In this document: positions 7,103 to 63,267 of the stretch, one piece after another
Layout of the letters: every line of letters begins with the position of its first letter
Numbering within the stretch: the stretch's first letter is position 1
Assembly: GCA_964484165.1 (NCBI GenBank)
Contig: CAZAFS010000001.1
Coordinates: forward strand, 763 to 64,762
DNA length: 64,000 nucleotides
Source of the DNA: an uncultured Opitutaceae bacterium
GTDB lineage: Bacteria > Verrucomicrobiota > Verrucomicrobiia > Opitutales > Opitutaceae
Direction of reading: 5' to 3'
Program-made: the position numbers and the translations under genes
Notes under the pieces: generated by a model
The model's database searches: none
What the model was told of the DNA's origin: nothing
Seen by the model: only the letters and a program-made list of their open reading frames with translations

Positions 7103-7973
7103 CTACGGCGTGTCTTCAAACCCTCGGTAACTGAGTTTGAGGCCTGAGCGTCGTCGGAATGCCATGAACATCATTGAACGCTGGGAACTGCCGGAGCCGC
7201 TGTGGGACCGGCTTAAGAAATTAATCTGATCCGACGCCGCTATCGGCAGAGGGCAGAATGGCACAGGCGCGGCGGACGGCCGCCCAAGGACGATCGGATG
7301 ATGGTAACGGCGATGTGGTATGTCCTGCGCACCGGCCTGCCGTGGCGGGATCTGCCCGAGCGCTTCGGCCCGTGGAGTTCGGTGTACACGCGGTTTCGTC
7401 GTTGGTGCGGGTACGGCCTGTGGGCGCGCCTGTTCCGGCGAATGCGCTCCCACGCCTGGGACCAGATCCGCAGTCTGGACTGCTCGCACGGCAAGGTGCA
7501 TGCCGACGGGGCCAATCCTGCGGGCGGCCAAGAGGGCCAAGCGATGGGTCGAACCAAGGGCGGCCTCAACTCCAAGGTGGCCGCAACGGTGGATGCCTTG
7601 GGCCGACCGGTGCAACTGGCCGTGGCGCCTGGGCCGCAGCATGACTTGCTCGCCTGCGCGCCGTTGCTGCCGAGCTTGCGCGACTGCTGGTTGCTGGCCG
7701 ATCGCAGATTCGACGCCGACGACTTCCGCCAGCGGCTCGACGCTCAGGGGGTGCGGGCCTGCATCCCACCCCGGTCGGGCCGGCGCTGGCCCAGTCGGTT
7801 CAGCCGCCGACTGTACCGGCAACGCCACACGGTCGAAAACTTCTTCGCCCGGATCAAACGATACCGCCGCATCGCCACCCGCTATGAAAAACTCGCCGAT
7901 CATTTTCTTGGCTTCCTGCTATTCGCCGCCGTGCTCGATTGGCTCAAGTTTGGGGTTTGAAGACACGCCGTAG
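7103..7973 (+). mobile_element. IS5-family insertion sequence, apparently complete
   Basis: The terminal inverted repeats match at 21 of 21 positions: 7103-7123 CTACGGCGTGTCTTCAAACCC and the reverse complement of 7953-7973. The element is bracketed by C-TA ... TA-G, which is compatible with a TA duplication at a CTAG target. It carries the transposase described in the next feature. Confidence 0.85.
7164..7960 (+). CDS. IS5-family (DDE) transposase in two reading frames that need a -1 shift
   Basis: orfA is 7164-7229 (MNIIERWELPEPLWDRLKKLI*). The -1 frame is open from 7217 and reads ...RRRYRQRAEWHRRGGRPPKDDRMMVTAMWYVLRTGLPWRDLPERFGPWSSVYTRFRRW ... ENFFARIKRYRRIATRYEKL. The frames overlap for only 10 nt (GAAATTAATC) and I saw no canonical slippery heptamer there. 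Confidence 0.75.
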
Positions 7974-8049
7974 AGATGATCGGCGGCGGAGCCTCGGCGC
8001 GAGGAACGTAGGCCCCCTCTGCCTTCGGCAGCGGACCGCGACGGCTCGC

Positions 8050-9051
8050 TCAGGCGGGCGTGATGGGCTGGCAGAGTGCGGCCAAATTTTCGGGCGGAGT
8101 CGGCGCGGGAATCTCGCAACCGGCGTTGACCATAAAGGGCGCGCCGGCATCGGCATAACAGCGGCGGATGGCGGCGGCGATGCTTTCGGGCGATCCGCGC
8201 ATGACGCAAGCAACCGGATCGACGTTACCGGACAGGACGATTCGCGGCCCCAGCACGCGGCGGGCCTCGGCCAAGCTCACCATGTGGTCGATGTCGATGA
8301 CGTCGAGACCCAGCGTCGCGATGCCCGGCAGGAGATGCTTGATGTTGCCGCAAATGTGCAGCCGGACGTGCACGCGCATCTCGTGCAGCGTCGCCACGAG
8401 CCGCTGCTCGTGCGGCAGGATGAGCGTTTCGTATACCTTCGCCGACACTTGGCTGGCCACGGCATCGCCAATGCCGATCGTATCGGCGCCGGCGGCCACC
8501 TGCGGGCGGGCGAAATCGATCGCCGTTTCCACACAGCGGGCCATTAACGCGTCCGTGTAGGCCGGATCATCAAGCAGATCCATGAAGAAATTGGACACGC
8601 CGCGCAGATCGGCGGCCTCCGCGGCCGGGCCCTCCACCCAGCCCATGATCGAAAAGCGGTCGCCCGCCCGCGCCTTGTAGGCGCGCACAGCCTCGATGCG
8701 ATCGCGCATGCGCGGTGCCTGCAGCGGATCGGGCCGCGGCAATTTGGCGAGATCCGGATCCTCCTCCAGCGGCGGCTTGAGGCAAATGGGCACGCCATTG
8801 CGGGGAAACTCGATCGGCGCGCCGAAACCCGCTGTCTCCCGATAAGGATCGGACATGGTGTTGAGCTGATCGATGCCGAATTCCTCGGCGCAACGAAGAT
8901 TGGCCTCAACCAATACCCGATAGTCCGAAGCGAAGGCGCCGTAGTAGGAGCCAATGTGCTCGGCGGCGAACTGCATCAGGATCGGTAGCCGGGGCAGCAC
9001 GTCTGGTCGGCCGCCGTGCAGCACCGCCAAATAACGTTCACGCGGGGTCAT
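8050..9051 (-). CDS. mtaA: URO-D family methylcobamide methyltransferase (MtaA/MtbA-like MT2)
   Basis: This is ORF 8050..9072; the track start is TTG and an ATG lies at 9051 (MTPRERYLAVLHG). It is URO-D-like throughout. The MT2 zinc motif is present as VRLHICGNIKHLL (H-x-C) and VNAGCEIP (distal Cys). Confidence 0.8.
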   Translation of the reverse strand: MTPRERYLAVLHGGRPDVLPRLPILMQFAAEHIGSYYGAFASDYRVLVEANLRCAEEFGIDQLNTMSDPYRETAGFGAPIEFPRNGVPICLKPPLEEDPDLAKLPRPDPLQAPRMRDRIEAVRAYKARAGDRFSIMGWVEGPAAEAADLRGVSNFFMDLLDDPAYTDALMARCVETAIDFARPQVAAGADTIGIGDAVASQVSAKVYETLILPHEQRLVATLHEMRVHVRLHICGNIKHLLPGIATLGLDVIDIDHMVSLAEARRVLGPRIVLSGNVDPVACVMRGSPESIAAAIRRCYADAGAPFMVNAGCEIPAPTPPENLAALCQPITPA

Positions 9052-9097
9052 AAGTTGGAGAAGCGGTTCCAAGAAAGGGCTGACGGCCTCCCGAGCA

Positions 9098-9688
9098 TTA
9101 GTCCAGCTCGGCCGGCCGGGGGCCGGCGGCAGCCATGGCGCCGCGGGCGGAAGCCAGTTTGACCGCCAGGACGAAAATCCCGGTAAAGAGCAGATCCCCG
9201 AACAACGTGTTGCGGAAGAACCAGAGAGTGTTCGGGTATTCCGGGTGGCCGATGGTCAGAGCCTGGCACCAGCCGGCCAGCGATTTCGCATAAAAGGGAT
9301 CGGCAGCCCAGGCGACCGTGTTTGTGGCAAGGTAGAAAATGGCAGAGCTGGCCAGTGCACCGCCCAGAAGAGTGTACCCGTTGCGCCGGCGCGCCACGAG
9401 CCGGCCGACGCCCACGGCCGCGGCGAAGCAAAGCAGACGGAGGAAGATCTCATCCGACGACCATGCGAAGCCAAACCGTGTGGCATGGTAATGGTTAAGC
9501 CACAGGTCGGACAGCATGAGGGCGAAAAAGGGGACCAGCCACCACCGCCAGTCGTGGAAAAACACCGCGCCGCAAAACGCTAGCGCCGTGATCGGGGCCA
9601 CGTTGGAGAGCGACGGTTCAAACGCGCTCAGGACGCGCCAGAGGGCGGCTAGAAGAATCAGAATGAAGGCAAGAGTTGGGTTTTTCAT
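9098..9688 (-). CDS. Small polytopic membrane protein, possibly the DUF6580 putative-transporter family
   Basis: The ORF is 196 aa, starts with ATG at 9688 and has 5-6 hydrophobic segments. The N-terminal NVAPITALAFCGAVFF resembles the DUF6580 signature as I recall it. It lies inside the mta-like operon. Confidence 0.65.
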   Translation of the reverse strand: MKNPTLAFILILLAALWRVLSAFEPSLSNVAPITALAFCGAVFFHDWRWWLVPFFALMLSDLWLNHYHATRFGFAWSSDEIFLRLLCFAAAVGVGRLVARRRNGYTLLGGALASSAIFYLATNTVAWAADPFYAKSLAGWCQALTIGHPEYPNTLWFFRNTLFGDLLFTGIFVLAVKLASARGAMAAAGPRPAELD

Positions 9689-9706
9689 GAGAAGATCAGG
9701 AAGGGC

Positions 9707-10288
9707 TTACACTAAATCGACCACGGCGCCCGGAGCCGAGGCTGCACTGCGCATCGAGGCGCAGTGGATGCCCGGTGGAGTCGGCCTCGCGACGACGCGG
9801 TCGGCAAGCTCGAGCAGGACCATCTGAAAAAGTGACAGGGCTTGCTCCTGCAGGGCTTTCATCCAAGCCCGGTCCAAGCAGACGACCAGTTTGCGCGGCC
9901 AGCCGAGAACGCAATCAAACTCCGCTACCAAGGCCGCGGCCGCCATGGCTGGCACTTCGACAAAAAGCGAGTCGGTGCTACCCGCTGCCACCAGCGCGCG
10001 CAGCGCTCCGGGCAGGTCGGCCAGAATGGGGCAGCAGATACAGGGCAGAAGAATCCGCCGCACGGTCACGCTAGGGTTGTCCTTGGCAAATTCCTCCATG
10101 CGCGTAGGCCTTTCCTCCGCCAGCAGGACCGCGCAACGCGCATCGGGCTGATTCACCGTGATGTCGCGGATTTGCTGCTGCAACCAGCGGATCTTGCCGG
10201 CGTCGCGTGGTCCGGTCACAAACACACAGTGCGGCAGAGTTTTCGGAGCGGAGGTCGCGCGCCAGGAGGGTGAAGGCTTAGCCTGCAT
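9707..10288 (-). CDS. Degenerate CobW/G3E-family P-loop protein (short form)
   Basis: VFVTGPRDAGKI is a Walker A with the Ser/Thr replaced by Ile. LLPCICCP retains the CobW CxCC metal motif. SLFVEVPAMAAAALV resembles the IETSGLADP block. The NEFGE-type switch is not conserved. Confidence 0.6.
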   Translation of the reverse strand: MQAKPSPSWRATSAPKTLPHCVFVTGPRDAGKIRWLQQQIRDITVNQPDARCAVLLAEERPTRMEEFAKDNPSVTVRRILLPCICCPILADLPGALRALVAAGSTDSLFVEVPAMAAAALVAEFDCVLGWPRKLVVCLDRAWMKALQEQALSLFQMVLLELADRVVARPTPPGIHCASMRSAASAPGAVVDLV

Positions 10289-10309
10289 GGGTCCGCCGTT
10301 TCAGGTCAT

Positions 10310-11686
10310 TTAGAGTCCGTACTCCACCGGGAGATATTTAGCCGGGTCGGCCAGTGACATCTGCCGGTCGATGAAGCTGGCCTCATCGGACGGCAACTCG
10401 TCAAGTTGCGCGGTCATCGAGTCAAGGAAGCCGAGTTCGCGCCGGACGATCTTGAGCGAACCCGTGGCGTGGCTAGCGCGCAGGAGATCGATGGCACAGC
10501 GCGCCGCAGCGACGCCTGCATGGTAATGGTCTGGCGCATCCACGATCACGCGGCCGATGGCGATGACGCTTTCCGGGGCCAGCACCCAAGCCTGTGGATC
10601 GAGCCCCGCGTCGGACTCGACCAGCCAGCGCCGCAGGGTGAGGGCGGCGGCCTTCCCCTCGGCCAGAGCCCGATTCATCAACCGGCAGTCGTAGATCAAC
10701 TGTTCCATGTAGCAGGTCGGGGCCATGCCGGCGAGGAGCCGGACGTTCTGCACCGACTCGTTGGACCAGGTGTCGGCGTAGGCTGAGGCGATGTTGCCGA
10801 GCGGGCTGAAATGCGCACAGGCGGAGGTCTTGCCCTCCATGGCCACAGGATAGCCGGTTATGGCCTTGAGGTAGGGATTTTCGTAGGCACAATCCTTGCC
10901 CGGGCCGACGGCGCCATGTTCGTACGCCACGAGCGTGCGCACCGCCGTGACGGCGCGCACGACGGCGGCAAAGACCCGGGGAATCATCTTCTGCTCGGCC
11001 AGCACCATCGCGGTGTTGCCAAAGCCGCAGGCGGTGTCGCCCGCGCAGATGACGCCGTGGCGCCGCGCGATGACGGCGCGCTGTTTCCACAGGAATTCCA
11101 TGTCGCGTACGCCGAGCACGCATAGGGAGAAGATCACCTGTCCCAAGTCGCAGTTCATCAGCGCCTCGTCGTGCAGCTCCTTGCCGCCCACCGATTCGAT
11201 GCTCAGCAACTCGGCGCCGGCGCGGGCCGAGCCTTCGAAGAGCTCCAGCATCCGCTCCCAATGCTCACCCGAGCGCATGACCGGCGGGCGGGCGAACTCC
11301 CGGTTGTCGTTGGGCGTCATGCGCAGCGCCGTGGGCAGACCATACTGGCGGCGGGCTTCCGCCATGCCGGCGAGGAGCACCTGCACGATCTCGAGGCCAA
11401 AGGCCGGCGTGGCGGTCATGGGCGGTACAGTCTCGAATTCGATCACCACGCCGGGCGCCTCGAGTTCGGCCGCACGCCGCAGCGCATCCTTGATGATCTC
11501 TTGGTAGTGGCGGACCACAACGGGCATCGTCGCCGCCGCTACCTCCATAGTGGGTAGCGTAAAATTGAGTTCCGGATAAACCAGCCCGCCGCCCAGGCTC
11601 AGCCCTTGGCGGGTCACCAGCGGCTTGGGCGCGGTGCCGAAAAGCAGGTCGTCCGGGTTCGTGATCGCAAGGTATCGGAATCTCAT
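10310..11686 (-). CDS. mtaB: MtaB-family methyl-donor:corrinoid methyltransferase (methanol:corrinoid MT1-like)
   Basis: This is ORF 10310..11713; the track start is TTG and an ATG lies at 11686 (MRFRYLAITN). The blocks LLSIESVGGKE, ICAGDTACGFGNTAM, LVAYEHGAVGPGKDCAYENPYLKAITG, MEGKTSACAH, WSNESV and YDCRLMNRALAEG align with Methanosarcina MtaB from memory. The Glu/Cys/Cys zinc-ligand positions are among them. Confidence 0.9.
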   Translation of the reverse strand: MRFRYLAITNPDDLLFGTAPKPLVTRQGLSLGGGLVYPELNFTLPTMEVAAATMPVVVRHYQEIIKDALRRAAELEAPGVVIEFETVPPMTATPAFGLEIVQVLLAGMAEARRQYGLPTALRMTPNDNREFARPPVMRSGEHWERMLELFEGSARAGAELLSIESVGGKELHDEALMNCDLGQVIFSLCVLGVRDMEFLWKQRAVIARRHGVICAGDTACGFGNTAMVLAEQKMIPRVFAAVVRAVTAVRTLVAYEHGAVGPGKDCAYENPYLKAITGYPVAMEGKTSACAHFSPLGNIASAYADTWSNESVQNVRLLAGMAPTCYMEQLIYDCRLMNRALAEGKAAALTLRRWLVESDAGLDPQAWVLAPESVIAIGRVIVDAPDHYHAGVAAARCAIDLLRASHATGSLKIVRRELGFLDSMTAQLDELPSDEASFIDRQMSLADPAKYLPVEYGL

Positions 11687-11752
11687 GAGCAAAAAAGGGG
11701 AGGCCGGTTCCAATGGCCGCCGGTGCGACCGCAGGTAAGGGCGAAATCAACC

Positions 11753-12388
11753 TCACACCACGCCGGCGAGCGTCTTGGCCTGGTCTGCGGCCGACGCGGC
11801 GTCCGGGGCGTAGCCGTCGGCGCCAATCTCGTCGGCATACTGCTGACTGATCGGCGCGCCTCCGACCATAATCTTGACCGGCGGGCAGCCGCTGGTGCGG
11901 ATGGCGCGCAACGTTTCAACCATGGCCGGCATCGTCGTGGTCAGTAGGGCGGACAGGCCGACCACCTGAGGCCGATACTCGTTGATCGCGCTCACGAATT
12001 TGGCAGGGGCCACGTTGGTGCCCAGGTCGATGACGCGGAAATTGGCCCCCTTCCACATGACAGCGACCAGATTTTTGCCGATATCGTGCAGGTCGCCCTG
12101 CACCGTGCCGATCACGGCGGTGAATTTGGGAGTGATGCCGGCGGCGAGCAGCCGCGGCTCCAGCACGGTCATCGACTCCTTCATCGCCCGCGCCGCCACG
12201 AGCATCTCGGGGACGAAGATCTCGTTGTTCTTGAACTTTTCGCCCACAGCGGCCATCGCGGGCACTAGCGCCTGGTCCACAAGTTCACCGGGCTTGGCCC
12301 CCTCGTCGAGAGCCCGTTGCGTGAGGGCCCGGGCGTCCTTGCTTTTTCCGGCGGCGACGGCTTGGGAGAGTAGTTCGAGCGTGGTCAT
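11753..12388 (-). CDS. mtaC: Corrinoid (cobalamin-binding) protein, MtaC/MtbC-like
   Basis: This is ORF 11753..12418; the track start is TTG and an ATG lies at 12388 (MTTLELL). It has a B12-binding helical cap plus a Rossmann domain. GDLHDIGKN is the DxHxxG motif, followed by GLSALLTTT and MVGGAP. Confidence 0.9.
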   Translation of the reverse strand: MTTLELLSQAVAAGKSKDARALTQRALDEGAKPGELVDQALVPAMAAVGEKFKNNEIFVPEMLVAARAMKESMTVLEPRLLAAGITPKFTAVIGTVQGDLHDIGKNLVAVMWKGANFRVIDLGTNVAPAKFVSAINEYRPQVVGLSALLTTTMPAMVETLRAIRTSGCPPVKIMVGGAPISQQYADEIGADGYAPDAASAADQAKTLAGVV

Positions 12389-12414
12389 GATGGAGGCGGT
12401 GGAAAGGAAATAGT

Positions 12415-13656
12415 TCAAAGCCTAGCAGAAGCCGGGGCGACCAGCTTGGACGGCGGTGCTTTTGTTTGGGACTTTGATGCGGCCCGCGGATGGCCATGGC
12501 GGTAGTCGCCGGGCGTTCGGCCCATGCGTTTGCGGAACACCCGCGTGAAGTAGCTCTGGTCGCCAAAACCGCACTCAAGGGCGATCTGCGCCAGCGGAGT
12601 GTCAGTGCGGACCAATAGCTGGCAGGCGCGATCCACCCGCAGCCAAGTTAGCAGCTCGGTGAACGACCAGCGGGTTTTCGCCCGCATCAGGTGCGAAAAG
12701 TGGCTGGGCGAGAGGCCGGCCACGCGCGCGGTCGGCTCGCGCGTGAGGTCGTCGGCCAGGTGTGCCTCCATGAACTCCAGTCCGCCCGCGAGCAGGACCG
12801 GGCTGGGGCGCCCGTTGTTGGCTTCGATCGCGTCGATGAGCTGTTCGAGCATGTCGCACAGCCAGACCGCCAGGGCCTCCTGGTCGGCGACGTCTGCCAG
12901 CGCAGTGCGCGACTGGTAGTTGAGGCCGAGGATCTTCGAGGGATCGCCGCCAGCCTACACCGCTGCCCGGGTCATCATGACCACCAGTTCCAGCGCCAAG
13001 CTCTTGAGCAACTCGGTGCGGGCTTGGCCGACGGCGTAAATGGCGGTCAGCACGCGGTTGATGATGCGCCGGGCCTCGGTGCGCTCTCCGCGCCGGATGG
13101 CGGCCAGCAGCTCCGGCTCCTCGTGCAAATAGATGTTCCGGATATCGTCGTGCAGCCGGTCCTTCAGGGTATGGAGCGCCTCGGCCTTTTCGCTCTTGCG
13201 TCGCGCCGCGCGGCGACGCTCGCCCAGCAGCGCGGCGTTGGTGAGATTGCGTTCGGTGGCCAGCGCGAGCAGGCGGGCGCAGGCACCGAGAATCCGGCGG
13301 TCCAGACTGCCGGCGCGCCTGGGCCGTTTGAGAACGACGCCAGCCACGATCAGGCCGCCGCAGAATTGCTGGTTGTTCATGACCGGAACGGCCCACAACG
13401 CCCGGTTGCAGGCACAGCATAAGATGCAGGGCTCGCCCCAACGCAGCGCTTCGGCCACCGCCTGCGCTCGAAACAACCGGCACGCCTCGTTTCGCGCGCA
13501 GGCGGCCACGCCGGGCCCCCCGCGCAGGAAGCGACCCGCGGCGTCGACCGCGGCGAGCACGAAACCCGTCGCCCGCCGGTGGCGTCGGGCCAGCCGGTCG
13601 AATCCGGAGGCGTCAAGCAGGCCGGGAAACACGTCGAGGGTGGCGCGCGCGGTCAT
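12415..13656 (-). pseudogene. PocR-sensor / AraC-type HTH transcriptional regulator interrupted by an in-frame TAG
   Basis: ORF 12955..13836, from the ATG at 13656, contains a PocR-like Cys-rich sensor (CILCCACNRALWAVPVMNNQQFCGGLIVAGVV). ORF 12415..12852 contains the AraC dual HTH (IALECGFGDQSYFTRVFRKRMGRTPGDY). Both are in the same frame. The read-through gives ...LVVMMTRAAV*AGGDPSKILGLNYQSRTALADV..., with the TAG at 12955-12957. Confidence 0.8.
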
Positions 13657-13657
13657 G

Positions 13658-14330
13658 TCAGGGCAAGACCAGTTGGTCGATGCAGGCGTCTTCGAATCCG
13701 GGCTGCAGGTTGAGTTCGATCGCCTCCATGGTGCGGCACGCCACCGCCATTTCCTCGAGCAGGCTGCGGTCGTGCAAGGCCAGAAAGGCGCTCCCGAGCG
13801 AGGTGTTGCCGACGACTTGGATCTGTTCGAACGCAAAGCCCGGGAGCAGACCGCAGCCTATGGCGTGCTCCAACGAGAGAGGCATGCCGAAACCGCCGGC
13901 GAGATGGAGCCGCTTCACATCGCGTGGCGCGGCGCCGAGCAGATGCAGCAGCGTTGAGATGCCGGCCGCCAAGAACTGCACGGTTGCCAAGTGGCGTTTG
14001 ACAATGTGGTGCCTTGGTCGGCGCCGGATGAACACGACCACGTCGCGCCAAGAGCTGCTGCGCGATTTTCGATCATGAAGATGCAGATCCCGTCGAAGCC
14101 GTAGATTGTTTCTTCGTAAGCTAATTGGCGGTAGCACGCAAGCGCTCGCAATCAGGGTGACGGTGCAGCTCATCGGGGTTCCTCCGAATTCCCGGCATGG
14201 CGTTGGGCGCTCACCCGTCGAGATGCAGTAAGCCGTTGCCGGCCTCGGTCGAGGCAAGTTTCACTTTTCCTTCGACCAAGGACCCTGGAAATGCCTAAAT
14301 CGACCGCCAATGGATCGTTACCATGGCAAC
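13658..14330 (-). pseudogene. RACo-type corrinoid reductive activase (ASKHA/DUF4445), C-terminal stump with frame breaks
   Basis: The C-terminus reads ...VKRLHLAGGFGMPLSLEHAIGCGLLPGFAFEQIQVVGNTSLGSAFLAL, which is the RACo C-terminal pattern. Upstream pieces lie in other frames: LAVDLG... and VEGKVKLASTEAGNG, which resemble the DxGTNGE ... STAAGPA block. The 2Fe-2S domain and the first half of the ASKHA domain are absent. Confidence 0.6.
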
Positions 14331-14443
14331 TCCCCGTCTGTATCTCAGGGTTTGCAGACAATCTGCCAATGGCAGCAATGCCAATTCGGTGAAGTCAACA
14401 TGAAGTCCATTTTCACGAAATGATAGATGGCCCCGGAATTGCC

Positions 14444-15022
14444 ATGAGCTATTTCAGCGATTATACCACGGCCGTGTTTTCCCGCCTGCAATCCGTGGTG
14501 GCGACGGACGAACGGGGGAAAATCCTCGAGATCCAGGCGGCGTTCGACCGCTGGTGCCACCTGACGACCGCCGCGCAGAACGGAGGCCGCTCACATTATT
14601 TCATTGGCAACGGGGCCAGCGCCACGATGGCAAGCCATATGGCGCTTGATTGTGCGAAAAACGCCGGCATTCGGGCTCTGGCATTCAACGATCCCGCATC
14701 GCTCACGGCCTTGGGCAATGACGTCGGTTTCGACCAGTGCTTTGCCCAGCCGTTGCGCTGGCATGCGCGTGCGGGCGATATTTTGGTCGCAATCTCGAGT
14801 TCCGGGCGGTCGCGCAACATTCTCGTCGCGCTTGAGGCCGCCCGGACGATTGGCTGCAACGTTGTAACCTTGACGGGGATGGGCGAGGACAATCCAACTC
14901 GCAAGGGCGGCGGTCTCAACTTTTACATCCCTGCAAAGACCTACGGTGCGGTGGAGTGCGCTCATCAAATCCTGCTCCATTGCTGGTTGGACCAGCACAT
15001 GGAGCTCGAGGAGTGGGGTTGA
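14444..15022 (+). CDS. SIS-domain sugar-phosphate isomerase (GmhA/phosphoheptose-isomerase-like)
   Basis: This is ORF 14420..15022; I prefer the ATG at 14444 (MSYFSDYT). The motifs are FIGNGASATMASHMALD and VAISSSGRSRNIL. Its stop overlaps the start of the next gene (TGATG). Confidence 0.8.
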   Translation: MSYFSDYTTAVFSRLQSVVATDERGKILEIQAAFDRWCHLTTAAQNGGRSHYFIGNGASATMASHMALDCAKNAGIRALAFNDPASLTALGNDVGFDQCFAQPLRWHARAGDILVAISSSGRSRNILVALEAARTIGCNVVTLTGMGEDNPTRKGGGLNFYIPAKTYGAVECAHQILLHCWLDQHMELEEWG

Positions 15023-16039: not shown

Positions 16040-17438
16040 GGCGTCCCATTCAATCTCTCATACTCAAGCTGTACCGCTGCTCTCAGGGGGCTCTGAGAAG
16101 TTGGCGAAGGGTCGAATCCGGGCTGCCAAGGCGAAACGGCGTCAGATCCGATTTCGTGGCTCGAACGAAAGGCTCGGCCCACCGCGGATGATTCGAGCAG
16201 AGCACGGTGTCATTTGGTCCGTTGGTCAAGGCCAGCTGCCTCGAATCCTGATAAAGAGACCCGATGCTCATGACTTTGTGCGACCAAGACGAATTCCAGC
16301 CAGCCGCACACTGTGCTGCGCGGGATGCGCGCGGCGATTTTGCGAGCATTGGCGTCCATCGACCGGTCGCGCAGCGCGTCGAAGCGAGCTCGGTCCGCGA
16401 GACACCGGCACGGGTCCCGCAGGTTTTCGCCTACCAGTTCAAAGTCAAACAGGCGATCGCCCAGCAGCACGGCATAATGCGGCCGCTTGGGTGTCAGCTT
16501 GCTCCACTTGCTTCACGATTCCACACCGCGGCCTGTTGGCCGGTGGTACGTCCAAACGGACGATACCCCAGTGCGCTGCAACGATCCCGACGAGCCGCAC
16601 GGCGGCACGAGTCAAGGCTGGCTCTGGGTGCTCAGTCGCCCCGACGGCGACGTCGTCTTCGATTGGCGGCTGCCGTGGCGGCATGGGGAGTTGGCCTCGC
16701 TACCGGCCGGCTATCGCGGTGTGCTCCAGTCGGATGGTTACGAGGCGTATGCCGTCTTCGCCCAGCAGAACGCCGGCGTGACGTGGGTCGGTTGTTGGGA
16801 GCATGGCCGGAAGCCCAAGCGGAATCGCCGAAGGCGGTGCGCGTCGTGCTCAAGCTGATCGCGCGACTGCATCGACTGGAACGCACCTGGGACGAGGCGG
16901 TCCTGACGGTCCCGGCCGAACGGGCGCAGCTACGCACCGCGGGTTTTGCCCGCGCGCTCGCGTGGCTTCATCGACTGGCGCTGGCCTTGCGCGCACGCGT
17001 GCTGCCCAAGTCGCTCCTCCGCCAAGCCTGCACCTGTCTGCTCGGCCACTGGACGCCGCTGACCGCGCACCGGCGCCACCGCCAGACCCGACTCGACACC
17101 AACTTGGTCGAAAACGCCGTCCGCCCCTCGGCGGTGGGCAAGAACTGGATGTTCATCGGCCATCTCGACGCCGGTCAGCGCTCCGGGATCCTCTACTCGA
17201 TTGTCGTCTCCTGCCAGCGGCACGGCAAAAACCCTCTAGGCTACCTGCGCGACGTGCTGCGCCGCCTGCCAGCCATGACGAATCAGGACGACCTCGCTGC
17301 GCTCACTCCCGCTTGCCGGCAACCGGCTTCCTGATCAGATTGCGATCGGTCACCATCCGGAATCCGGTTAGTGACTATCAGTAATTACGAATAGTCACTA
17401 TTCGTAGCTGCCAACGAGGCACCCGAGCGGATGTTTAC
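16040..17438 (+). mobile_element. IS66-family element remnant; tnpC is a pseudogene and tnpA/tnpB are missing
   Basis: Fragments lie in several + frames: LLSGGSEKL, YVQTDDTPVRCNDPDEPHGGTSQGWLWVLSRPDGDVVFDW...GVLQSDGYEAYAVF...VGCWEH, and ...QTRLDTNLVENAVRPSAVGKNWMFIGHLDAGQRSGILYSIVVSCQRHGKNPLGYLRDVLRRL. The terminal motif AACGAGGCACCCGAGCGGATGTTTAC ends at 17438. The left boundary is approximate. Confidence 0.7.
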
Positions 17439-17829: not shown

Positions 17830-18656
17830 GGGGCCAAGCAGCGGCGGATGATTTCAACCAGCCCGTCCGCCTCCCACGCAGATCGGCCGATGAACAATCC
17901 ATCGCAACCGCCATGGTGCAGGATGGAGGCGGCGTTATCACGGGAAACGCTGCCGCCGTAGAGGACGGGCACCTGGGTGCCGGCTCTACCGAGTGCATCC
18001 CGCAAAACCTTCCGGATGTGCGCGACCATATCGCGCACGTAGTCGGGCTCGGCCGGAACGCCTTCCGCGCCGATGGCCCACACCGGTTCGTAGGCGATCC
18101 AGACGCGCGCTATGTCTGCTTTGGCCAAGCGGTTCACCGCGATGCGCACCTGGCGTCCGAGCGTTTCGCCCGAAACTCCGAACTGCTTATCGTCCGCTTT
18201 CTCCCCGACACACACGAGCGCGCGCAGTCCATGTTTCACAGCATTGAGCACCTTCTGGTTAATGCGCCCATCGGTCTCGTTGAAGTATTCGCGACGCTCA
18301 CTATGCCCGAGTTCGATGAGGTCGGCGCCGAGGTCCACCAGCATGGGAGCTGAAATTTCTCCGGTGAACGCGCCCCAGTCGCACCAATGCATGTTCTGTG
18401 CTCCGACGAGGCAACGGCCCAACGTATGTTCCTTGACGGCGGCGATTGCCGTGAAAGGCGGGACCAGAAAGACCTGGACCTGTTCTAAGCCCGTGATCGT
18501 GTCGAGTTGCCGCACCAGCGATTTGGCATAGTCGATGGCTTCGCGTACCGTCTTGTTCATTTTCCAGCTGGTGCCGATGTAATACTTGGCTGGGGAGATT
18601 GCCTTCCCCTTTTGCCCCACCGGGCGAGTGGGTTGGGATGAGGGGGTGTGGTTCAT
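17826..18656 (-). CDS. tpiA: Triosephosphate isomerase family protein (paralogue-like, with about 24 extra N-terminal residues)
   Basis: The motifs are GTSWKMNKT, GAQNMHW, ELGHSERR, IAYEPVWAIGAEG and LYGGSV. The ATG at 18654-18656 directly abuts the IS3 inverted repeat that starts at 18657. Confidence 0.9.
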   Translation of the reverse strand: MNHTPSSQPTRPVGQKGKAISPAKYYIGTSWKMNKTVREAIDYAKSLVRQLDTITGLEQVQVFLVPPFTAIAAVKEHTLGRCLVGAQNMHWCDWGAFTGEISAPMLVDLGADLIELGHSERREYFNETDGRINQKVLNAVKHGLRALVCVGEKADDKQFGVSGETLGRQVRIAVNRLAKADIARVWIAYEPVWAIGAEGVPAEPDYVRDMVAHIRKVLRDALGRAGTQVPVLYGGSVSRDNAASILHHGGCDGLFIGRSAWEADGLVEIIRRCLAP

Positions 18657-19938
18657 TGATCCGACTTACCTTTTGGGACCAGGGCTAGAGTCGTTCCGAA
18701 AGTGATGAGGTTGGGTTGTCGGTGGTGGTTTGTCCATTCTTGGCGGAGGGAGGGCGCAGCCCGACCGGAGCCAAAGAAGGAGGAAGTTGGGCGGCGAAAA
18801 GGGCTGGGCTTGGGTAACGCAGTTTGCTGTGCGGCCGGCGTGTGTTGTATTGCTGACGGAGGTCCTCGATCACGACGCGGGATTCCGAGAGGGATCACGG
18901 TTGCTCGGGGTTGAGGCACTTGTCGCGGAATCGGCTGTGAAAGCTTTCCACGAAGCCGTTTTGCCAAGGGCTTCCGGGGTCGATGTAGATGGTGCGGATG
19001 CGCTGTTCTGCCAGCCAGCGCTGGACGATGTCGGCGATGAACTCTGAGCCGGTGTCGGAACACAGGCACTCCGGGGCGTCGTGCGCCTGGATGGCCTTGT
19101 GCAGCCACTCCAATACGTCTTCAGAGCGCAGGGCCCAGTCCGCCCGCAGCACAACATGGCACTCGCGGGTAAACTCGTCTAGGATGGTCAGCATGCGCAG
19201 GGCACCGCCGCGCACGGTGGCGTCAGCGATGAAGTCCCAGATCCAGACGCGGCCGCGGTGCGTCGCCTTGGTGGGCAGTCCCGTCGGAGTGGCCGCGGCG
19301 GATGATCTTCCGCTTGGTCGGCGGTACCCGCAGACCCGCATGCCGCCGCAGCTTCTGGATCGAACGCTTGCCCACCGGCCAGCCTTTCTGGCGCAGTAAC
19401 GCCGCGATCCGGCGGTAGCCATACCGGGGATACTGCCCCGAGAGCTGCTCCCGCCGAGTCAGCAGCCGTTGCTGCCGGGGCGAAAGCCCGCGCTGGGGAT
19501 AATGGTAAGTCGAGCGTGCCAGGTGCAGGATTCGGCACACTGCCCGCCTGGAGCACACTCCGTCATGAACGGCGGCTTGCGTCGCCTGCTTCTTGTGCCC
19601 CGGGCTCATAATTTTTGCGCCCACGTACTCCAGCACCCACTTGGCCAGCAGGGCATCGGCGAGCATCTTCTTGAGCTCGGTGTTCTCCTTCTCCAGCTAC
19701 TTCAGCCGCCGGGCCTCGTTGAGGTCCATCTGGCCGAACTGGCGCTCCCAGCCGTGGAAGGTCACGTCCGAGATATTAGACTCCTTGCTCGTCTCCGTGA
19801 TGTTGCCGCGCTGATCGGCGTCCCGGAGGATCCGAATCTTCTCCTGGGTGGTGAAGCGTTTGCCCTTCATGGTCTGGGTTCCTTTCGTTTGAGCCCAGAC
19901 CAAGTCATCACCCGGTCCAAGAAAGGCGAGTCACGTTA
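18657..19938 (-). mobile_element. IS3-family insertion sequence, full-length but degenerate
   Basis: orfA is 19697-19903 (MKGKRFTTQEKIRILRDA... ending RRLK*, with LEKENTELKKML continuing in frame after a TAG). The orfB rve-type pieces lie in three or more frames: RYGYRRIAALLRQKGWPVGKRSIQKL, ILDEFTRECH...SDTGSEFIA...IDPGSPWQNGFVESFH and YNTRRPHS. The imperfect IRs are TGATCCGACTTACCTTTTGGGACC (18657-) and TAACGTGACTCGCCTTTCTTGGACC (reverse complement ending at 19938). Confidence 0.8.
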
Positions 19939-62036: not shown

Positions 62037-63053
62037 CTACCATTTGAACTCCACGAACGCCTCGTACATCGCGCGGATGTTTTCGAGCGGGACGTCCTCA
62101 GAGATCTCGCCGCAGGCGATGATGCCTCCTTCACTCGTACCGAGATCGTGGAGGAGCTGGTTGATGTATGCCTTCACCTCGGCGGGCGAGACGAACGGCA
62201 GGACGTTCTGGCGATCAATGTCGGTACGGAAACAGACCTTGCCCGCGAACTGTTTCAGCCGCTTTCGATCCATCACCGACGCCTGGCAGTTCAACACGAC
62301 CACGCCGAGTTCGATCAGGTCAGGAACGATCTCGATGATGTTGCCGTCGCTGTGATACCATACATCGATACCTGCCTCCTTGACCTTCGAGAACATCGCA
62401 CGGTACATCGGCTTGAAGAACGAGCGCCATTTCTCGGGCGCGATCATCAGGCTCTGTTGCGTTCCCCAGTCGTCGGCGAATTGCAGGCCCTGGTATTCCT
62501 TCTCCAGCCAACGATCTATAACCTTGAGCTGGAATTCAAGAAGCTCGTCGCGCAAGCGGTAAATCTCAGGGCGGTCGCTCACAACGTCCATGAGCGTGGC
62601 GTCCCACCCGTGCAGTTGCTGGAGTTGCTCAAAAAACGTGATCCATGCGCCGCGCGCGTAATATTCCTCGGCCTTACCAGCCATATGGCCGCTGTAGAGG
62701 CGATACTTCGGTACGCCGACCGTGAACACCGCCGGCCAGCGGTATTCGCTGTAATTGCTCCAGTCCTCCGCGATGGGGAACCCAGTGGGAATGCCGCAGC
62801 GTCCCGCGACTGTGACGTGCCACGTTGTTCCGAAATCGTCCTTATTGATGCCCAATTTGTAGAGCGGCGGCAGTTTCTCCTTCGGCAGATCGGGTAGCAG
62901 CCCCCAGCCGAAATCCTCGGGTACCGAGTCGGTAATTACCTGGAGCGTGTCGCCGTATTGGTACTGAGCCGCCGGCAGAATCGCATGCGAAATCGGCGGA
63001 CGGTCGGGGTTTTGGAAACGAATCGACCGAACCACCCTTTCTCGATTCGACAT
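62037..63053 (-). CDS. URO-D-family protein (second copy; variant metal motif)
   Basis: This is ORF 62037..63119; the plausible ATG at 63053 gives MSNRERVVRSIRFQNPDRPP. It is URO-D/MT2-like, but the H-x-C position reads WYHSDGN (H-x-D). The distal IIACGEISEDVP retains the Cys. The gene is AT-richer than its neighbours. Confidence 0.75.
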   Translation of the reverse strand: MSNRERVVRSIRFQNPDRPPISHAILPAAQYQYGDTLQVITDSVPEDFGWGLLPDLPKEKLPPLYKLGINKDDFGTTWHVTVAGRCGIPTGFPIAEDWSNYSEYRWPAVFTVGVPKYRLYSGHMAGKAEEYYARGAWITFFEQLQQLHGWDATLMDVVSDRPEIYRLRDELLEFQLKVIDRWLEKEYQGLQFADDWGTQQSLMIAPEKWRSFFKPMYRAMFSKVKEAGIDVWYHSDGNIIEIVPDLIELGVVVLNCQASVMDRKRLKQFAGKVCFRTDIDRQNVLPFVSPAEVKAYINQLLHDLGTSEGGIIACGEISEDVPLENIRAMYEAFVEFKW

Positions 63054-63267
63054 CCCTGAATGCCTGGTTTGCTTGTTCATTGTCGGTTCGTCTCCATCGT
63101 TCGATTGTTTTTCATTCATTTGCTGCTATCCTCCATCGATATTTGGGCTTGCCTCGGGAAAGTGGACACCAATTTAGGCGGTGACCGGACTCACTTTCCC
63201 GAGCCACTCGGAGTGTTAGATGACGTGAAGCCGACAGGCGGCGGTAAAACAGCCAACCTGTCGGCCG

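What the first reader, a model, noticed from the sequence alone, without database searches (positions are those of the whole stretch)
8050..14330. MtaB/MtaC/MtaA-type corrinoid methyl-transfer operon with two embedded extra genes, in a glycan-degrader context
Tightly spaced, co-directional minus-strand genes form the operon:
- An MtaC-like corrinoid protein, with GDLHDIGKN, SALL and GG.
- An MtaB-family MT1, with LLSIESVGGKE, ICAGDTACGFGNTAM, GPGKDCAYEN, MEGKTSACAH, WSNESV and YDCRLMN. As far as I recall Methanosarcina MtaB, the Glu/Cys/Cys zinc-ligand positions are conserved.
- A CobW-like P-loop gene and a small membrane gene.
- A URO-D/MtaA-type MT2, with HICGN and GCE.

Upstream on the same strand are a PocR-AraC regulator and the stump of a RACo-type activase. 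MtaABC is textbook for methylotrophic methanogens and is known in some acetogens. Here it is surrounded by TonB-receptor, GH29, GH127 and fucose genes and IS elements in a GC-rich genome.

The methyl donor is undefined; candidates are methanol released from methyl-esterified glycans or O-methylated sugars. The acceptor is also undefined; it may be tetrahydrofolate, since coenzyme M chemistry is not expected in bacteria. This could be an undescribed glycan-linked demethylation or methanol-scavenging module.
Basis: partly seen in the sequence, partly recalled or inferred. Interest (0 to 1): 0.85.

Follow-up and report, generated by a model that had tools for sequence, protein, structure and literature searches.

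The report
Bacterial methanol–corrinoid methyltransferase operon, partly damaged
This is a real vitamin-B12-dependent operon for taking the methyl group off methanol. It belongs to a widespread but biochemically untested bacterial clade, it resembles the acetogen system except for a methanogen-style last enzyme, and in this genome three of its helper genes are broken.

Summary
Window 8050-14257 (minus strand) carries a tight operon:
- a RACo remnant
- a PocR-AraC regulator
- the corrinoid protein MtaC
- MtaB (PF12176, 538 bits, all three zinc ligands conserved)
- a short CobW/COG0523 GTPase
- a DUF6580 membrane protein
- a URO-D-family methyltransferase with the His-x-Cys…Cys zinc triad

The module is not glycan-linked: its flanks are not conserved, and an intact IS5 element bounds it.

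The closest characterised system is the acetogen mta operon (Eubacterium). It has 52% MtaB identity, the same MtaR-type regulator, a short CobW and RACo. The CobW gene is therefore a known accessory.

The clear difference is the second methyltransferase. No pterin-binding (tetrahydrofolate) MT2 occurs in the window or in 80 related loci. Instead there is a methanogen-type URO-D enzyme, and 15 of 80 relatives carry a stand-alone homocysteine S-methyltransferase. This points to a thiol acceptor rather than tetrahydrofolate.

DUF6580 recurs beside corrinoid genes and is probably a corrinoid transporter.

In this genome:
- the regulator has an in-frame TAG
- RACo is truncated and DUF1638 is absent
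- the CobW P-loop is mutated

Bacterial mtaB in these phyla has already been reported in metagenome surveys. Interest is moderate.

The parts
8050..9072 (-). MT2: a URO-D-family methylcobamide methyltransferase of the MtaA/CmuA type, with the H239-x-C241…C319 zinc triad. The likely true start is 9051.
   Evidence: Pfam URO-D E 1.3e-62. NCBIfam TIGR01463 mtaA_cmuA scores 161.8 bits, below the 235 cut-off. The best PDB hit is M. mazei MtaA 4ay7, E 4e-21, with HxC and C aligned. Relatives at 82-92% identity lie in Opitutaceae loci.
9098..9688 (-). DUF6580 small membrane protein (196 aa, predicted to be all-helical). Candidate corrinoid transporter.
   Evidence: Pfam PF20221 E 7.8e-29. It lies downstream of MtaB in 19 of 80 loci across phyla. 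The AF2 model has pLDDT 86.8. The best fold match is an ECF S-component, 5edl, TM 0.48, E 0.9, which is weak. Distant homologues sit next to a PduO-type adenosyltransferase (L085, L086) or a URO-D/pterin-binding pair (L088).
9707..10288 (-). Short CobW/COG0523 GTPase (N-terminal domain only). CxCC is present, but the Walker A motif is mutated in this genome.
   Evidence: Pfam cobW 26.4 bits. C83-x-C85-C86 is invariant in 16 of 16. The window reads GPRDAGKI where 15 of 16 relatives read GPRGAGKT. The counterpart in the acetogen operon is at L089 5944-6549.
10310..11713 (-). MtaB, the methanol:corrinoid methyltransferase (MT1). The homology-supported start is 11686.
   Evidence: PF12176 538.5 bits. 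PDB 2i2x E 6.5e-88 with Glu/Cys/Cys aligned and invariant in 80 of 80. It is 52% identical to Eubacterium maltosivorans MtaB. There is no excess change at conserved sites.
11753..12418 (-). MtaC-type corrinoid protein (B12 cap plus Rossmann domain, DxHxxG). The homology-supported start is 12388.
   Evidence: Pfam PF02310 and PF02607. Motifs are invariant in 58 of 58. It is 92% identical to L081 MtaC and 44% identical to Eubacterium MtaC2.
12415..13656 (-). MtaR-type PocR-AraC regulator: one gene with an in-frame TAG at 12955-12957 (a probable pseudogene).
   Evidence: tblastn with the 423-aa L081 regulator gives one 413-aa alignment in one frame at 87% identity. It shows '*' opposite Gln and the codon gtg TAG gct. 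It is homologous to Eubacterium MtaR, E 1e-32.
13658..14257 (-). Remnant of the RACo corrinoid reductive activase. Only about the last 105-140 codons (13661-14086) are homologous.
   Evidence: Pfam RACo_C_ter profile positions 147-250 only. It aligns to residues 412-543 of the 543-aa L081 protein. Full-length RACo is present in 33 of 80 loci and DUF1638 in 32 of 80; DUF1638 is absent from the window.
7103..7973 (.). IS5-family insertion sequence bounding the operon, 77 nt downstream of the MT2 stop codon.
   Evidence: Perfect 21-nt inverted repeats at 7103-7123 and 7953-7973. The transposase carries DUF4096 and DDE_Tnp_1. The same junction appears on metagenome contig L084.

Best explanation
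This is a bacterial methanol:corrinoid methyltransferase system. It belongs to a clade shared by Verrucomicrobiota, Planctomycetota, Acidobacteriota and Armatimonadota.

Proposed mechanism, with each step marked as shown or inferred:
1. Regulation (inferred). The MtaR-type PocR-AraC activator switches the operon on in response to methanol. The inference comes from homology to E. limosum MtaR.
2. Cofactor supply (inferred). DUF6580 brings in a corrinoid to load MtaC. The inference rests on gene association and a weak fold match.
3. Metal loading (inferred). The short CobW/COG0523 GTPase supplies zinc to the two zinc enzymes. The inference comes from the family's known role.
4. Activation (inferred). 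RACo plus DUF1638 reduce Co(II) to Co(I) using ATP.
5. First transfer. [quoted passage not shown] Family membership, the metal ligands and acetogen-like active-site motifs are shown. The activity itself is inferred.
6. Second transfer (inferred). The URO-D MT2, whose His-Cys-Cys zinc site is of the kind that activates thiols in methanogen MtaA/MtbA, passes the methyl group to an acceptor. That acceptor is more likely a thiol than tetrahydrofolate, and its identity is unknown. Homocysteine is the leading candidate in those relatives that carry a stand-alone homocysteine S-methyltransferase.

In this genome three accessory genes are damaged: MtaR has a stop codon, RACo is truncated, and the CobW P-loop is mutated. 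DUF1638 is also absent. The five-gene core is intact, but it may be poorly expressed or depend on copies elsewhere in the genome.
For: - Family assignments and ligands.
- Active-site motifs are near-identical to Eubacterium MtaB: GDTACGFGNTAM vs GDSACGFANTAM, ELNFTLP vs EINFTLP, and YDCRLMN identical. The E. limosum mtaB/C2/A genes are genetically required for methanol use, and MtaR is a PocR-AraC activator (PMC13602510).
- The operon parallels the acetogen operon and its regulator.
- The partners are conserved in 80 species-level genomes.
- COG0523 is linked to the zinc-dependent mtaA/mtaB genes (PMC2770081).
- RamA plus DUF1638 are predicted to act as the cobalamin reactivation pair (PMC12478193).
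- There is no pterin-binding homologue in the window or the 80 loci. PF02574 homocysteine methyltransferases sit inside operons in 15 of 80 loci, for example L063 MtaC-MtaB-URO-D-HcyMT-DUF1638-RACo.
- DUF6580 is associated with corrinoid genes in three independent contexts.
- The core genes show no excess substitutions at conserved sites.
Against: - No activity or expression data exist for this clade in the window's lineage.
- The regulator's nonsense codon, the loss of about 75% of RACo plus DUF1638, and the CobW T33I/G29D changes suggest the locus may be inactive here.
- URO-D proteins of the MtaA/CmuA family can also act as MT1s (CmuA, MtsA). The window's URO-D could therefore be a second methyl-donor enzyme rather than the MT2.
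- The window-type URO-D and the Hcy methyltransferase co-occur in L078 and L073, so they are not simple substitutes for each other.
- PurU lies next to the Hcy methyltransferase in L039 and L049. This hints at a folate link in some relatives.
- The DUF6580 fold match is not significant (E 0.9). One of four distant homologues has no B12 neighbour.
- The window covers only 64 kb, so a pterin-binding MT2, a second RACo or MetH elsewhere in the genome cannot be excluded.
Confidence: 0.7

Rival explanations
1. The locus is a decaying remnant in this genome. It was mobilised or rearranged by IS activity, is no longer regulated or reactivatable, and is therefore functionally silent even though five reading frames are still open.
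For: - In-frame TAG in MtaR where relatives have Gln.
- RACo is reduced to its last 105-140 codons and DUF1638 is missing, while close relatives (L081, L003, L017) keep both.
- The window alone has the Walker A Thr-to-Ile and Gly-to-Asp changes in CobW.
- An intact IS5 lies 77 nt from the operon end. IS66 and IS3 copies and an integrase are nearby.
Against: - MtaB, MtaC and DUF6580 carry 1, 0 and 0 changes at positions conserved in at least 95% of relatives. That is no more than the median relative.
- MT2 keeps its zinc triad.
- In E. limosum, mtaBC2A alone restored methanol use, and the accessory mtaW/X/Y genes were dispensable (PMC13602510).
- Other RACo or activator copies may exist outside the 64-kb window.
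- The single TAG could be a sequencing or population variant.
Confidence: 0.3
2. This is a methanol-fed methionine synthesis or thiol methylation module. MtaB plugs methanol-derived methyl groups into a split-MetH-like core (corrinoid protein, thiol methyltransferase, RACo, DUF1638). The product is methionine or another methyl-thioether, not methyl-tetrahydrofolate.
For: - Stand-alone PF02574 proteins (best NCBIfam matches are the Hcy-binding modules of YitJ, BHMT and MetH) lie in 15 of 80 loci, several of them contiguous with MtaC-MtaB.
- DUF1638 and RACo are the accessory pair predicted to recharge cobalamin for the split methionine synthase. In that system an alternative MT1 (MtgB) shares the corrinoid protein (PMC12478193).
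- The window's MT2 has the thiol-activating zinc triad.
- No pterin-binding gene is present.
Against: - The window itself has no PF02574 gene.
- Its URO-D is not a homocysteine-binding fold.
- URO-D and HcyMT co-occur rather than replace each other.
- No experiment links any URO-D enzyme to homocysteine.
Confidence: 0.2
3. This is the first reader's idea: a glycan-linked demethylation module. MtaB and/or the URO-D enzymes would remove methyl groups from O-methylated sugars or cyclitols, or scavenge methanol released from methyl-esterified glycans by neighbouring enzymes.
For: - A sub-clade of Opitutaceae operons (L002, L004, L005, L009, L011, L012) adds three genes in the same transcription unit: a Sugar_tr transporter, a second URO-D, and a fusion of a FA-desaturase-like domain, a MocE-type Rieske domain and a reductase domain. 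From memory, such fusions resemble the rhizopine O-demethylating MocDEF.
- The window holds a second divergent URO-D gene inside a sugar-utilisation cluster, 62037-63119.
- The host is a glycan degrader.
- Methanol derived from pectin is a common substrate (PMC13391211).
Against: - None of the window's glycan genes recurs next to mtaB in 80 loci.
- The window's operon lacks the transporter and oxygenase genes.
- MtaB active-site motifs match those of methanol-using Eubacterium.
- Verrucomicrobial genomes are so rich in GH genes that proximity is expected by chance.
Confidence: 0.1
4. This is an acetogen-like route. The methyl group ends on tetrahydrofolate, through an MT2 encoded elsewhere or through the URO-D enzyme itself. 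It is then oxidised to formate/CO2 or used for biosynthesis.
For: - MtaB, the regulator and the short CobW are closest to the acetogen system.
- PurU (formyl-THF deformylase) lies inside two related loci.
- A formate dehydrogenase-like gene and a hydrogenase/formate-hydrogenlyase-like gene set follow the cluster in L081.
- One DUF6580 homologue sits beside a URO-D plus Pterin_bind pair (L088).
Against: - No pterin-binding homologue lies within 10 kb of mtaB in 80 loci or in the 64-kb window, whereas acetogens keep it adjacent.
- The bacterial MtaA/MtqA proteins used as references in PMC13222342 were grouped with AcsE and MetH (from memory, pterin-binding MT2s), not URO-D.
- I know of no URO-D enzyme shown to methylate tetrahydrofolate (from memory).
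Confidence: 0.2

Closest known systems
[quoted passage not shown]
   Same: - MtaB is 52% identical, with near-identical active-site motifs.
- The regulator is an MtaR-type PocR-AraC protein (E 1e-32).
- A corrinoid protein with cap plus Rossmann domain lies beside MtaB.
- A short cobW-family gene sits inside the operon.
- The activase is the bacterial RACo type.
   Different: - MT2 is a URO-D/MtaA-CmuA-type zinc enzyme instead of a pterin-binding protein. No pterin-binding gene is nearby.
- There is a DUF6580 membrane gene instead of MtaX/MtaY.
- DUF1638 accompanies RACo in relatives.
- There is one MtaC instead of two.
- The hosts are glycan-degrading Verrucomicrobiota and other non-acetogens, with no Wood-Ljungdahl context in the loci.
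Methanogen MtaABC (Methanosarcina barkeri/mazei; PDB 2i2x and 4ay7)
   Same: - It has the same three-part logic: MtaB, MtaC and a URO-D-family zinc MT2.
- The MtaB Glu/Cys/Cys and MT2 His-x-Cys…Cys ligands are conserved.
- COG0523 genes cluster with mtaABC in Methanosarcina (PMC2770081).
   Different: - MtaB is only 38% identical.
- The NCBIfam methanogen equivalogs for MtaB, MtaC and MtaA are all far below cut-off: 398 vs 720, 107-114 vs 420-450, and 114 vs 400.
- The activase is bacterial RACo rather than RamA.
- Coenzyme M is not expected in the host (inference), so the acceptor must differ.
Split methionine synthase / MtgBCDE system of Ruegeria and Phaeobacter (PMC12478193)
   Same: It is modular: a free-standing corrinoid protein is served by interchangeable methyl-donor enzymes, with RamA/RACo plus DUF1638 predicted to act as the reactivation pair. 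A stand-alone homocysteine S-methyltransferase module is found in 15 of 80 mtaB loci.
   Different: - The donor enzyme is MtaB (methanol), not MtgB (glycine betaine).
- There is no pterin-binding MtgD homologue.
- The window itself has neither the homocysteine module nor DUF1638.
Type 1 mlp gene clusters (URO-D-family coenzyme M methyltransferase homologues in non-methanogens; Kountz & Balskus preprint, PMC10418091)
   Same: These are URO-D-family homologues of methanogen MT2 enzymes, found with a corrinoid protein and a RACE/RACo activase in organisms without coenzyme M. They lack a tetrahydrofolate methylase and are proposed to act in methyl-sulfur or methyl-selenide chemistry.
   Different: Those clusters have no MtaB, occur only in obligate anaerobes (73% Firmicutes), and carry two or three Mlp paralogues. 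Whether the window's URO-D falls in any Mlp clade was not tested.

Membership tests
MtaB (PF12176, methanol:corrinoid methyltransferase MT1) | Full-length match to the family profile above the curated cut-off | tested here: met
   538.5 bits against a cut-off of 25, profile positions 3-448 of 460.
MtaB (PF12176, methanol:corrinoid methyltransferase MT1) | Zinc ligands Glu/Cys/Cys of the M. barkeri structure | tested here: met
   E173, C229 and C275 align with E164, C220 and C269 of 2i2x. They are invariant in 80 of 80 relatives. The ligand identities are recalled from the structure paper.
MtaB (PF12176, methanol:corrinoid methyltransferase MT1) | NCBIfam equivalog for methanogen MtaB (NF040651, cut-off 720 bits) | tested here: not met
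   397.9 bits. The protein belongs to the family but to a separate bacterial clade: 38% identity to M. barkeri and 52% to Eubacterium.
MtaB (PF12176, methanol:corrinoid methyltransferase MT1) | Methanol:cob(I)alamin methyl-transfer activity | not testable with these tools
   Needs an enzyme assay. Active-site motifs match the methanol-using Eubacterium enzyme.
MtaC-type corrinoid protein | B12-binding Rossmann domain plus helical cap, with DxHxxG, SxL and GG motifs | tested here: met
   PF02310 (93 bits) and PF02607 (77 bits). The motifs are invariant in 58 of 58. The methanogen MtaC equivalogs are not met: 107-114 bits vs 420-450.
MtaA/MtbA-type methylcobamide:thiol methyltransferase (URO-D family, TIGR01463) | URO-D fold and the His-x-Cys…Cys zinc motif | tested here: met
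   PF01208 212 bits. H239, C241 and C319 align with M. mazei MtaA.
MtaA/MtbA-type methylcobamide:thiol methyltransferase (URO-D family, TIGR01463) | Score above the TIGR01463 / NF004889 subfamily cut-offs | tested here: not met
   161.8 vs 235.4 bits, and 149.3 vs 244 bits. It is the nearest subfamily, but this is not a curated member.
MtaA/MtbA-type methylcobamide:thiol methyltransferase (URO-D family, TIGR01463) | Coenzyme M as methyl acceptor | not testable with these tools
   Only 64 kb of the genome is available, and no coenzyme M synthesis genes were looked for outside it. CoM is judged unlikely by inference.
Acetogen-type Mta system | Pterin-binding (PF00809) MT2 adjacent to mtaB/mtaC | tested here: not met
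   It is present in the Eubacterium locus L089. tblastn with two pterin-binding proteins found nothing in the window or in 80 loci. It is also absent from the Pfam tally of operon-contiguous genes.
Acetogen-type Mta system | PocR-AraC activator (MtaR) heading the operon | tested here: met
   25% identity over 361 aa, E 1e-32, to Eubacterium MtaR. However, it is interrupted by TAG at 12955-12957.
COG0523/CobW metallochaperone GTPase | CobW nucleotide-binding domain with the CxCC metal motif | tested here: met
   PF02492 26.4 bits vs 20.7. C-I-C-C at residues 83-86, with the three Cys invariant in 16 of 16.
COG0523/CobW metallochaperone GTPase | Intact Walker A motif GxxxxGK[ST] | tested here: not met
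   The window reads GPRDAGKI. 15 of 16 relatives read GPRGAGKT.
RACo / RamA-type corrinoid reductive activase | 2Fe-2S ferredoxin domain, middle domain and complete ASKHA ATPase domain | tested here: not met
   Only profile positions 147-250 of the C-terminal domain remain. The remnant corresponds to residues 412-543 of a 543-aa relative.
ECF S-component / BtuM-like vitamin transporter (for DUF6580) | Sequence or fold similarity to solved S-components | tested here: inconclusive
   There is no sequence hit in the PDB. Foldseek's best hit is the S-component 5edl (TM 0.48, E 0.92), with PanT 6zg3_C at TM 0.51, E 5. Gene association with corrinoid genes is seen.
Split methionine synthase (corrinoid protein + Hcy module + RamA + DUF1638) | Stand-alone PF02574 homocysteine-binding module in the cluster | tested here: not met
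   Absent from the window. Present in 15 of 80 related loci.

The most novel reading that the evidence does not exclude
The mtaB clade shared by Verrucomicrobiota, Planctomycetota, Acidobacteriota and Armatimonadota defines a third kind of methanol methyltransferase pathway. It would be neither methanogenic (coenzyme M) nor acetogenic (tetrahydrofolate). Methanol-derived methyl groups would go from MtaC to a thiol: homocysteine, giving methionine, or another small thiol. The transfer would be made by URO-D-type or PF02574-type zinc enzymes in ordinary polysaccharide-degrading heterotrophs. DUF6580 would be a new corrinoid uptake protein.
Probability: 0.25. Interest if true: 0.75.

Novelty: new variant of a known kind. 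Interest (0 to 1): 0.5.

Why it matters
Methanol from pectin and other plant methyl esters is a major C1 flux in soils, peat and lakes. Its anaerobic consumers are usually taken to be methanogens and acetogens.

This clade puts a complete MtaB/MtaC system into abundant glycan-degrading phyla. At least 176 species-level genomes matched in one scan, and transcripts have been reported in peat (PMC10805028). Those organisms would compete with methanogens for methanol.

The missing pterin-binding enzyme, and the presence of thiol-type zinc methyltransferases, make the fate of the methyl group an open and testable question.

DUF6580 also becomes a concrete candidate for a corrinoid transporter family.

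For this particular genome the practical message is caution. The core genes look intact, but the regulator, the activase and the metallochaperone are damaged.

Tried and rejected
- **Cobalamin riboswitch or other RNA.** An Rfam gathering scan of the whole window found nothing.
- **Sigma-70 promoter and terminator scan of 7800-14500.** Counts were at shuffle level and uninformative for this organism.
- **DUF6580 as a recognisable BtuM/ECF S-component by sequence.** There was no PDB sequence hit. The fold search gave only a weak S-component top hit. I kept this as an inference from gene association only.
- **TAG in the regulator read as pyrrolysine.** Rejected: relatives have CAG (Gln) at that codon, so a C-to-T nonsense change is the simple reading.
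- **PocR and AraC as two separate genes, or split by a frameshift.** Rejected: both parts are in the same frame, with a single stop codon between them.
- **URO-D MT2 as an acetogen-type tetrahydrofolate methyltransferase.** This was my initial recollection. It was corrected by the Eubacterium locus (Pterin_bind) and by PMC13222342.
- **CobW-like gene as a direct orthologue of acetogen MtaW.** Both match PF02492, but BLASTP found no pairwise hit at E < 0.01. I treat it as an analogous accessory, not a proven orthologue.
- **Literature searches.** Searches for DUF6580, for MtaB with Verrucomicrobia, Planctomycetes or Opitut*, and for corrinoid demethylation of methylated sugars found no functional study of this clade.
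- **Contig look-up.** The look-up of the window's own contig returned only a 3.8-kb metagenome copy.

Full report
**Observation**

The minus strand of window 8050-14257 carries seven co-directional reading frames separated by 18-39 nt. Pfam assigns them as follows:
- URO-D, 8050-9072, E 1.3e-62
- DUF6580, 9098-9688
- cobW, 9707-10288, 26.4 bits (weak but above the cut-off)
- MtaB (PF12176), 10310-11713, 538.5 bits over almost the whole profile
- B12-binding plus cap, 11753-12418
- AraC HTH, 12415-12852
- PocR, 12955-13836
- the last part of the RACo C-terminal domain, 13658-14257

The MtaB alignment to the M. barkeri structure 2i2x (E 6.5e-88) puts E173, C229 and C275 opposite E164, C220 and C269. 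I recall these as the zinc ligands. All three are invariant in 80 relatives. The corrinoid protein has DxHxxG, SALLT and GGAP, invariant in 58 relatives. The URO-D protein aligns best with M. mazei MtaA (4ay7) and keeps the H-x-C…C zinc motif.

**Corrections to the anatomy**

The PocR and AraC pieces are one gene. The 423-aa regulator of the closest long relative (L081) aligns in a single frame over 413 residues at 87% identity. The window has a stop codon where the relative has Gln: codon TAG at 12955-12957.

The RACo stump corresponds to residues 412-543 of a 543-aa protein. The DUF1638 gene that precedes RACo in relatives is absent.

The CobW-like protein keeps the CxCC metal motif. However, it alone among 16 relatives has GPRDAGKI instead of GPRGAGKT in the P-loop.

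By contrast MtaB, MtaC and DUF6580 show 1, 0 and 0 changes at positions conserved in at least 95% of relatives. That is no more than a typical relative.

An intact IS5-family element with perfect 21-nt inverted repeats (7103-7973) lies 77 nt beyond the last gene. The same junction is seen on an independent metagenome contig.

**Distribution**

A scan of one genome per species found 176 genomes with a relative. The best 80 are Opitutaceae (up to 92% identity), other Verrucomicrobiota, Phycisphaerae/Tepidisphaerales, Acidobacteriota, Armatimonadota and one Bacillota MAG. They include the cultured Geminisphaera colitermitum TAV2 and Nibricoccus sp. IMCC34717. Opitutus sp. ER46 also carries it.

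In a library of 50%-identity clusters the whole MtaB family is small: 141 clusters at E ≤ 1e-30, many of them fragments.

A neighbour-joining tree (labels) puts all these phyla in one tight clade at ≥62% identity. The topology inside the clade ignores phylum boundaries, which suggests lateral spread. The clade lies next to other bacterial clusters, including the acetogen Eubacterium maltosivorans (52%). Hodarchaeota (38%), M. barkeri (38%) and Methanobrevibacter (33%) are more distant.

**Conserved partners**

I clustered all ORFs in the 80 loci and rescored them with profiles built from the clusters. The number of loci carrying each partner was:

| Partner | Loci (of 80) |
|---|---|
| MtaC | 61 |
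| PocR-AraC | 51 |
| URO-D proteins | 43 |
| RACo | 33 |
| DUF1638 | 32 |
| DUF6580 | 19 |
| short CobW | 19 |
| stand-alone homocysteine S-methyltransferase (PF02574) | 15 |

Nothing from the window's glycan neighbourhood recurs. That neighbourhood is real: TonB-dependent receptor, GH29, GH127 and a fucose isomerase-like gene. I read it as the general make-up of an Opitutaceae genome, not a functional link.

**Comparison with the known systems**

The Eubacterium locus reads MtaR (PocR-AraC), MtaC1, cobW, two small genes, MtaB, MtaC2 and a Pterin_bind MT2, with RACo nearby. This matches the published E. limosum operon. In that operon MtaR activates the operon promoter, mtaBC2A suffice for methanol use, and mtaW/X/Y are dispensable (PMC13602510).

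The window's regulator is homologous to MtaR (E 1e-32). Its MtaB active-site motifs are almost identical to the Eubacterium enzyme. This is why I favour methanol as the donor.

COG0523 clustering with the zinc enzymes MtaA and MtaB was already noted in 2009 (PMC2770081). The CobW gene is therefore an expected accessory.

The clear departure is the MT2. The bacterial MtaA/MtqA proteins are treated together with AcsE and MetH (PMC13222342), and the Eubacterium MT2 carries Pterin_bind. No such homologue lies in the window or in any of the 80 loci. The window's MT2 is instead nearest to the MtaA/CmuA subfamily of methanogen thiol methyltransferases, although it is below the curated cut-offs. Only 18 of 63 clustered URO-D proteins share its Cys third ligand. 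Most have His there.

**What the acceptor might be**

In relatives, PF02574 proteins sit inside the operons. L063 reads MtaC-MtaB-URO-D-HcyMT-DUF1638-RACo. L073 and L060 combine five or six URO-D paralogues with one HcyMT. The best NCBIfam matches of these proteins are the homocysteine-binding modules of YitJ, BHMT and MetH.

The combination of a corrinoid protein, a homocysteine module, a RamA-like activase and DUF1638 is that of the split methionine synthase. There an alternative donor enzyme shares the corrinoid protein (PMC12478193).

This makes a thiol acceptor plausible for the clade. It does not identify the acceptor of the window's URO-D enzyme, for three reasons:
- The window-type URO-D co-occurs with HcyMT in L078 and L073.
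- URO-D enzymes of this subfamily can act as donor-side enzymes (CmuA, MtsA; from memory).
- PurU lies next to HcyMT in two loci, and an FDH-like gene plus a hydrogenase gene set follow the cluster in L081. Both keep a folate/formate route possible.

**DUF6580**

All sources call it hypothetical, and I found no paper that mentions it.
- An AlphaFold model built from 33 sequences is confident (pLDDT 86.8) and all-helical.
- Its best structural match is an ECF-transporter S-component. The score is not significant: TM 0.48, E 0.9.
- Gene association is more telling. Besides the 19 mtaB loci, homologues at about 55% identity lie directly downstream of a PduO-type cob(I)alamin adenosyltransferase in two unrelated contigs. 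Another lies downstream of a URO-D/pterin-binding pair. One of the four has no such neighbour.
- An invariant Cys39 stands out in the alignment.

I infer a role in corrinoid uptake or handling.

Six close Opitutaceae loci place three extra genes in the same unit as RACo-MtaC-MtaB-CobW-URO-D:
- a Sugar_tr transporter
- a second URO-D
- an 820-aa fusion of a fatty-acid-desaturase-like domain, a MocE-family Rieske ferredoxin domain and an NqrF-like reductase domain

From memory, MocD/E/F are the proposed O-demethylating oxygenase of rhizopine (an O-methyl inosamine) catabolism.

The window also has a second, divergent URO-D gene in a sugar-uptake cluster (62037-63119).

These observations keep the idea of methylated-sugar or cyclitol substrates alive for URO-D paralogues. 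They do not apply to the window's operon, and they do not concern MtaB itself.

**Prior knowledge**

An Opitutus-like tundra bin was reported with mtaB, mtbA and mttC in 2016 (PMC4842900). The Stordalen Mire study found mtxB genes in about 1,700 bacterial MAGs of 19 phyla, and found mtaB expressed by Acidobacteriota (PMC10805028). A floodplain study found mtaB in 1.6% of MAGs (PMC11264602).

None of these examined the MT2, the acceptor or the accessory genes. I found no biochemical or genetic work on this clade.

**Verdict**

The finding is real and correctly identified at the level of gene families. It is a variant of the known methanol methyltransferase system, not a new kind of system. Its presence in these phyla is already on record.

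Three things are new or unresolved:
- the hybrid architecture: acetogen-like MT1, regulator and accessories, with a methanogen-like zinc MT2 and no pterin-binding partner
- the consequent question of the methyl acceptor
- the DUF6580-corrinoid association

In this genome the accessory genes are damaged, so activity here is uncertain.

Noticed in passing
window 12955-12957 (minus strand): A single in-frame TAG interrupts the 413-codon MtaR-type regulator at a position where relatives encode Gln (CAG). The rest of the gene is 87% identical to the intact L081 protein.
   Followed up: yes
window 10190-10210 (CobW-like residues 26-33): The Walker A motif reads GPRDAGKI, whereas 15 of 16 relatives read GPRGAGKT. 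The Mg-binding Thr is lost only in this genome.
   Followed up: yes
window 7103-7973: An intact IS5-family element with perfect 21-nt terminal inverted repeats sits 77 nt after the operon's last stop codon. An IS66 fragment (16264-17334), IS3-type ORFs (18650-19900) and a phage-type integrase (638-1945) are also nearby.
   Followed up: partly
window 62037-63119 (minus strand): A second, divergent URO-D-family gene (H-S-D instead of H-x-C). It lies in a cluster with an ABC transporter ATPase and a permease, a GlcNAc-2-epimerase-like gene and an RraA-like aldolase. It is 30% identical over its C-terminal part to the extra URO-D of the L012-type operons.
   Followed up: partly
L012 1829-12971 (also L002, L004, L005, L009, L011): An Opitutaceae sub-clade operon: URO-D (420 aa), Sugar_tr transporter, DUF1638, an 820-aa fusion (FA-desaturase-like + MocE-type Rieske + NqrF-like reductase), RACo, MtaC, MtaB, CobW, URO-D. 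This is a possible link to O-methylated sugars or cyclitols, or an electron supply for the activase.
   Followed up: partly
L063 7989-14459; L073 9992-18466; L060 6924-19303: Stand-alone homocysteine S-methyltransferase (PF02574) genes are embedded in mtaB operons (15 of 80 loci). Planctomycetota and Armatimonadota loci carry arrays of five or six URO-D paralogues around them.
   Followed up: partly
L085 5414-6585; L086 5401-6615; L088 1033-4930: Outside mtaB loci, DUF6580 lies directly downstream of a PduO-type cob(I)alamin adenosyltransferase (two contigs). In a third contig it lies downstream of a URO-D plus Pterin_bind pair. This links the uncharacterised family to corrinoid metabolism.
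   Followed up: yes
L081 12631-21386: In the closest long relative the mta cluster has no URO-D after DUF6580. It is followed instead by a molybdopterin formate-dehydrogenase-like gene, Fe-S and NAD-binding subunits, HycI and hydrogenase-4/complex-I-like subunits (a formate-hydrogenlyase-like set).
   Followed up: no
L039 7304-8140; L049 8088-9089: PurU (ACT + formyl transferase, formyl-tetrahydrofolate deformylase type) lies next to the homocysteine methyltransferase gene, between the regulator and MtaC, in two Verrucomicrobiota loci.
   Followed up: no
protein P0275 (1238 aa): A representative in which an MtaB domain (36% identity) occupies residues 778-1237 of a much longer protein, that is, a fusion.
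   Followed up: no
L082 8095-11377 (Opitutus sp. ER46); L034 (Nibricoccus sp. IMCC34717): The cultured carriers have minimal modules. ER46 has regulator-MtaC-MtaB with no MT2, RACo or DUF6580 within 10 kb. In Nibricoccus no MtaC was detected next to MtaB.
   Followed up: no
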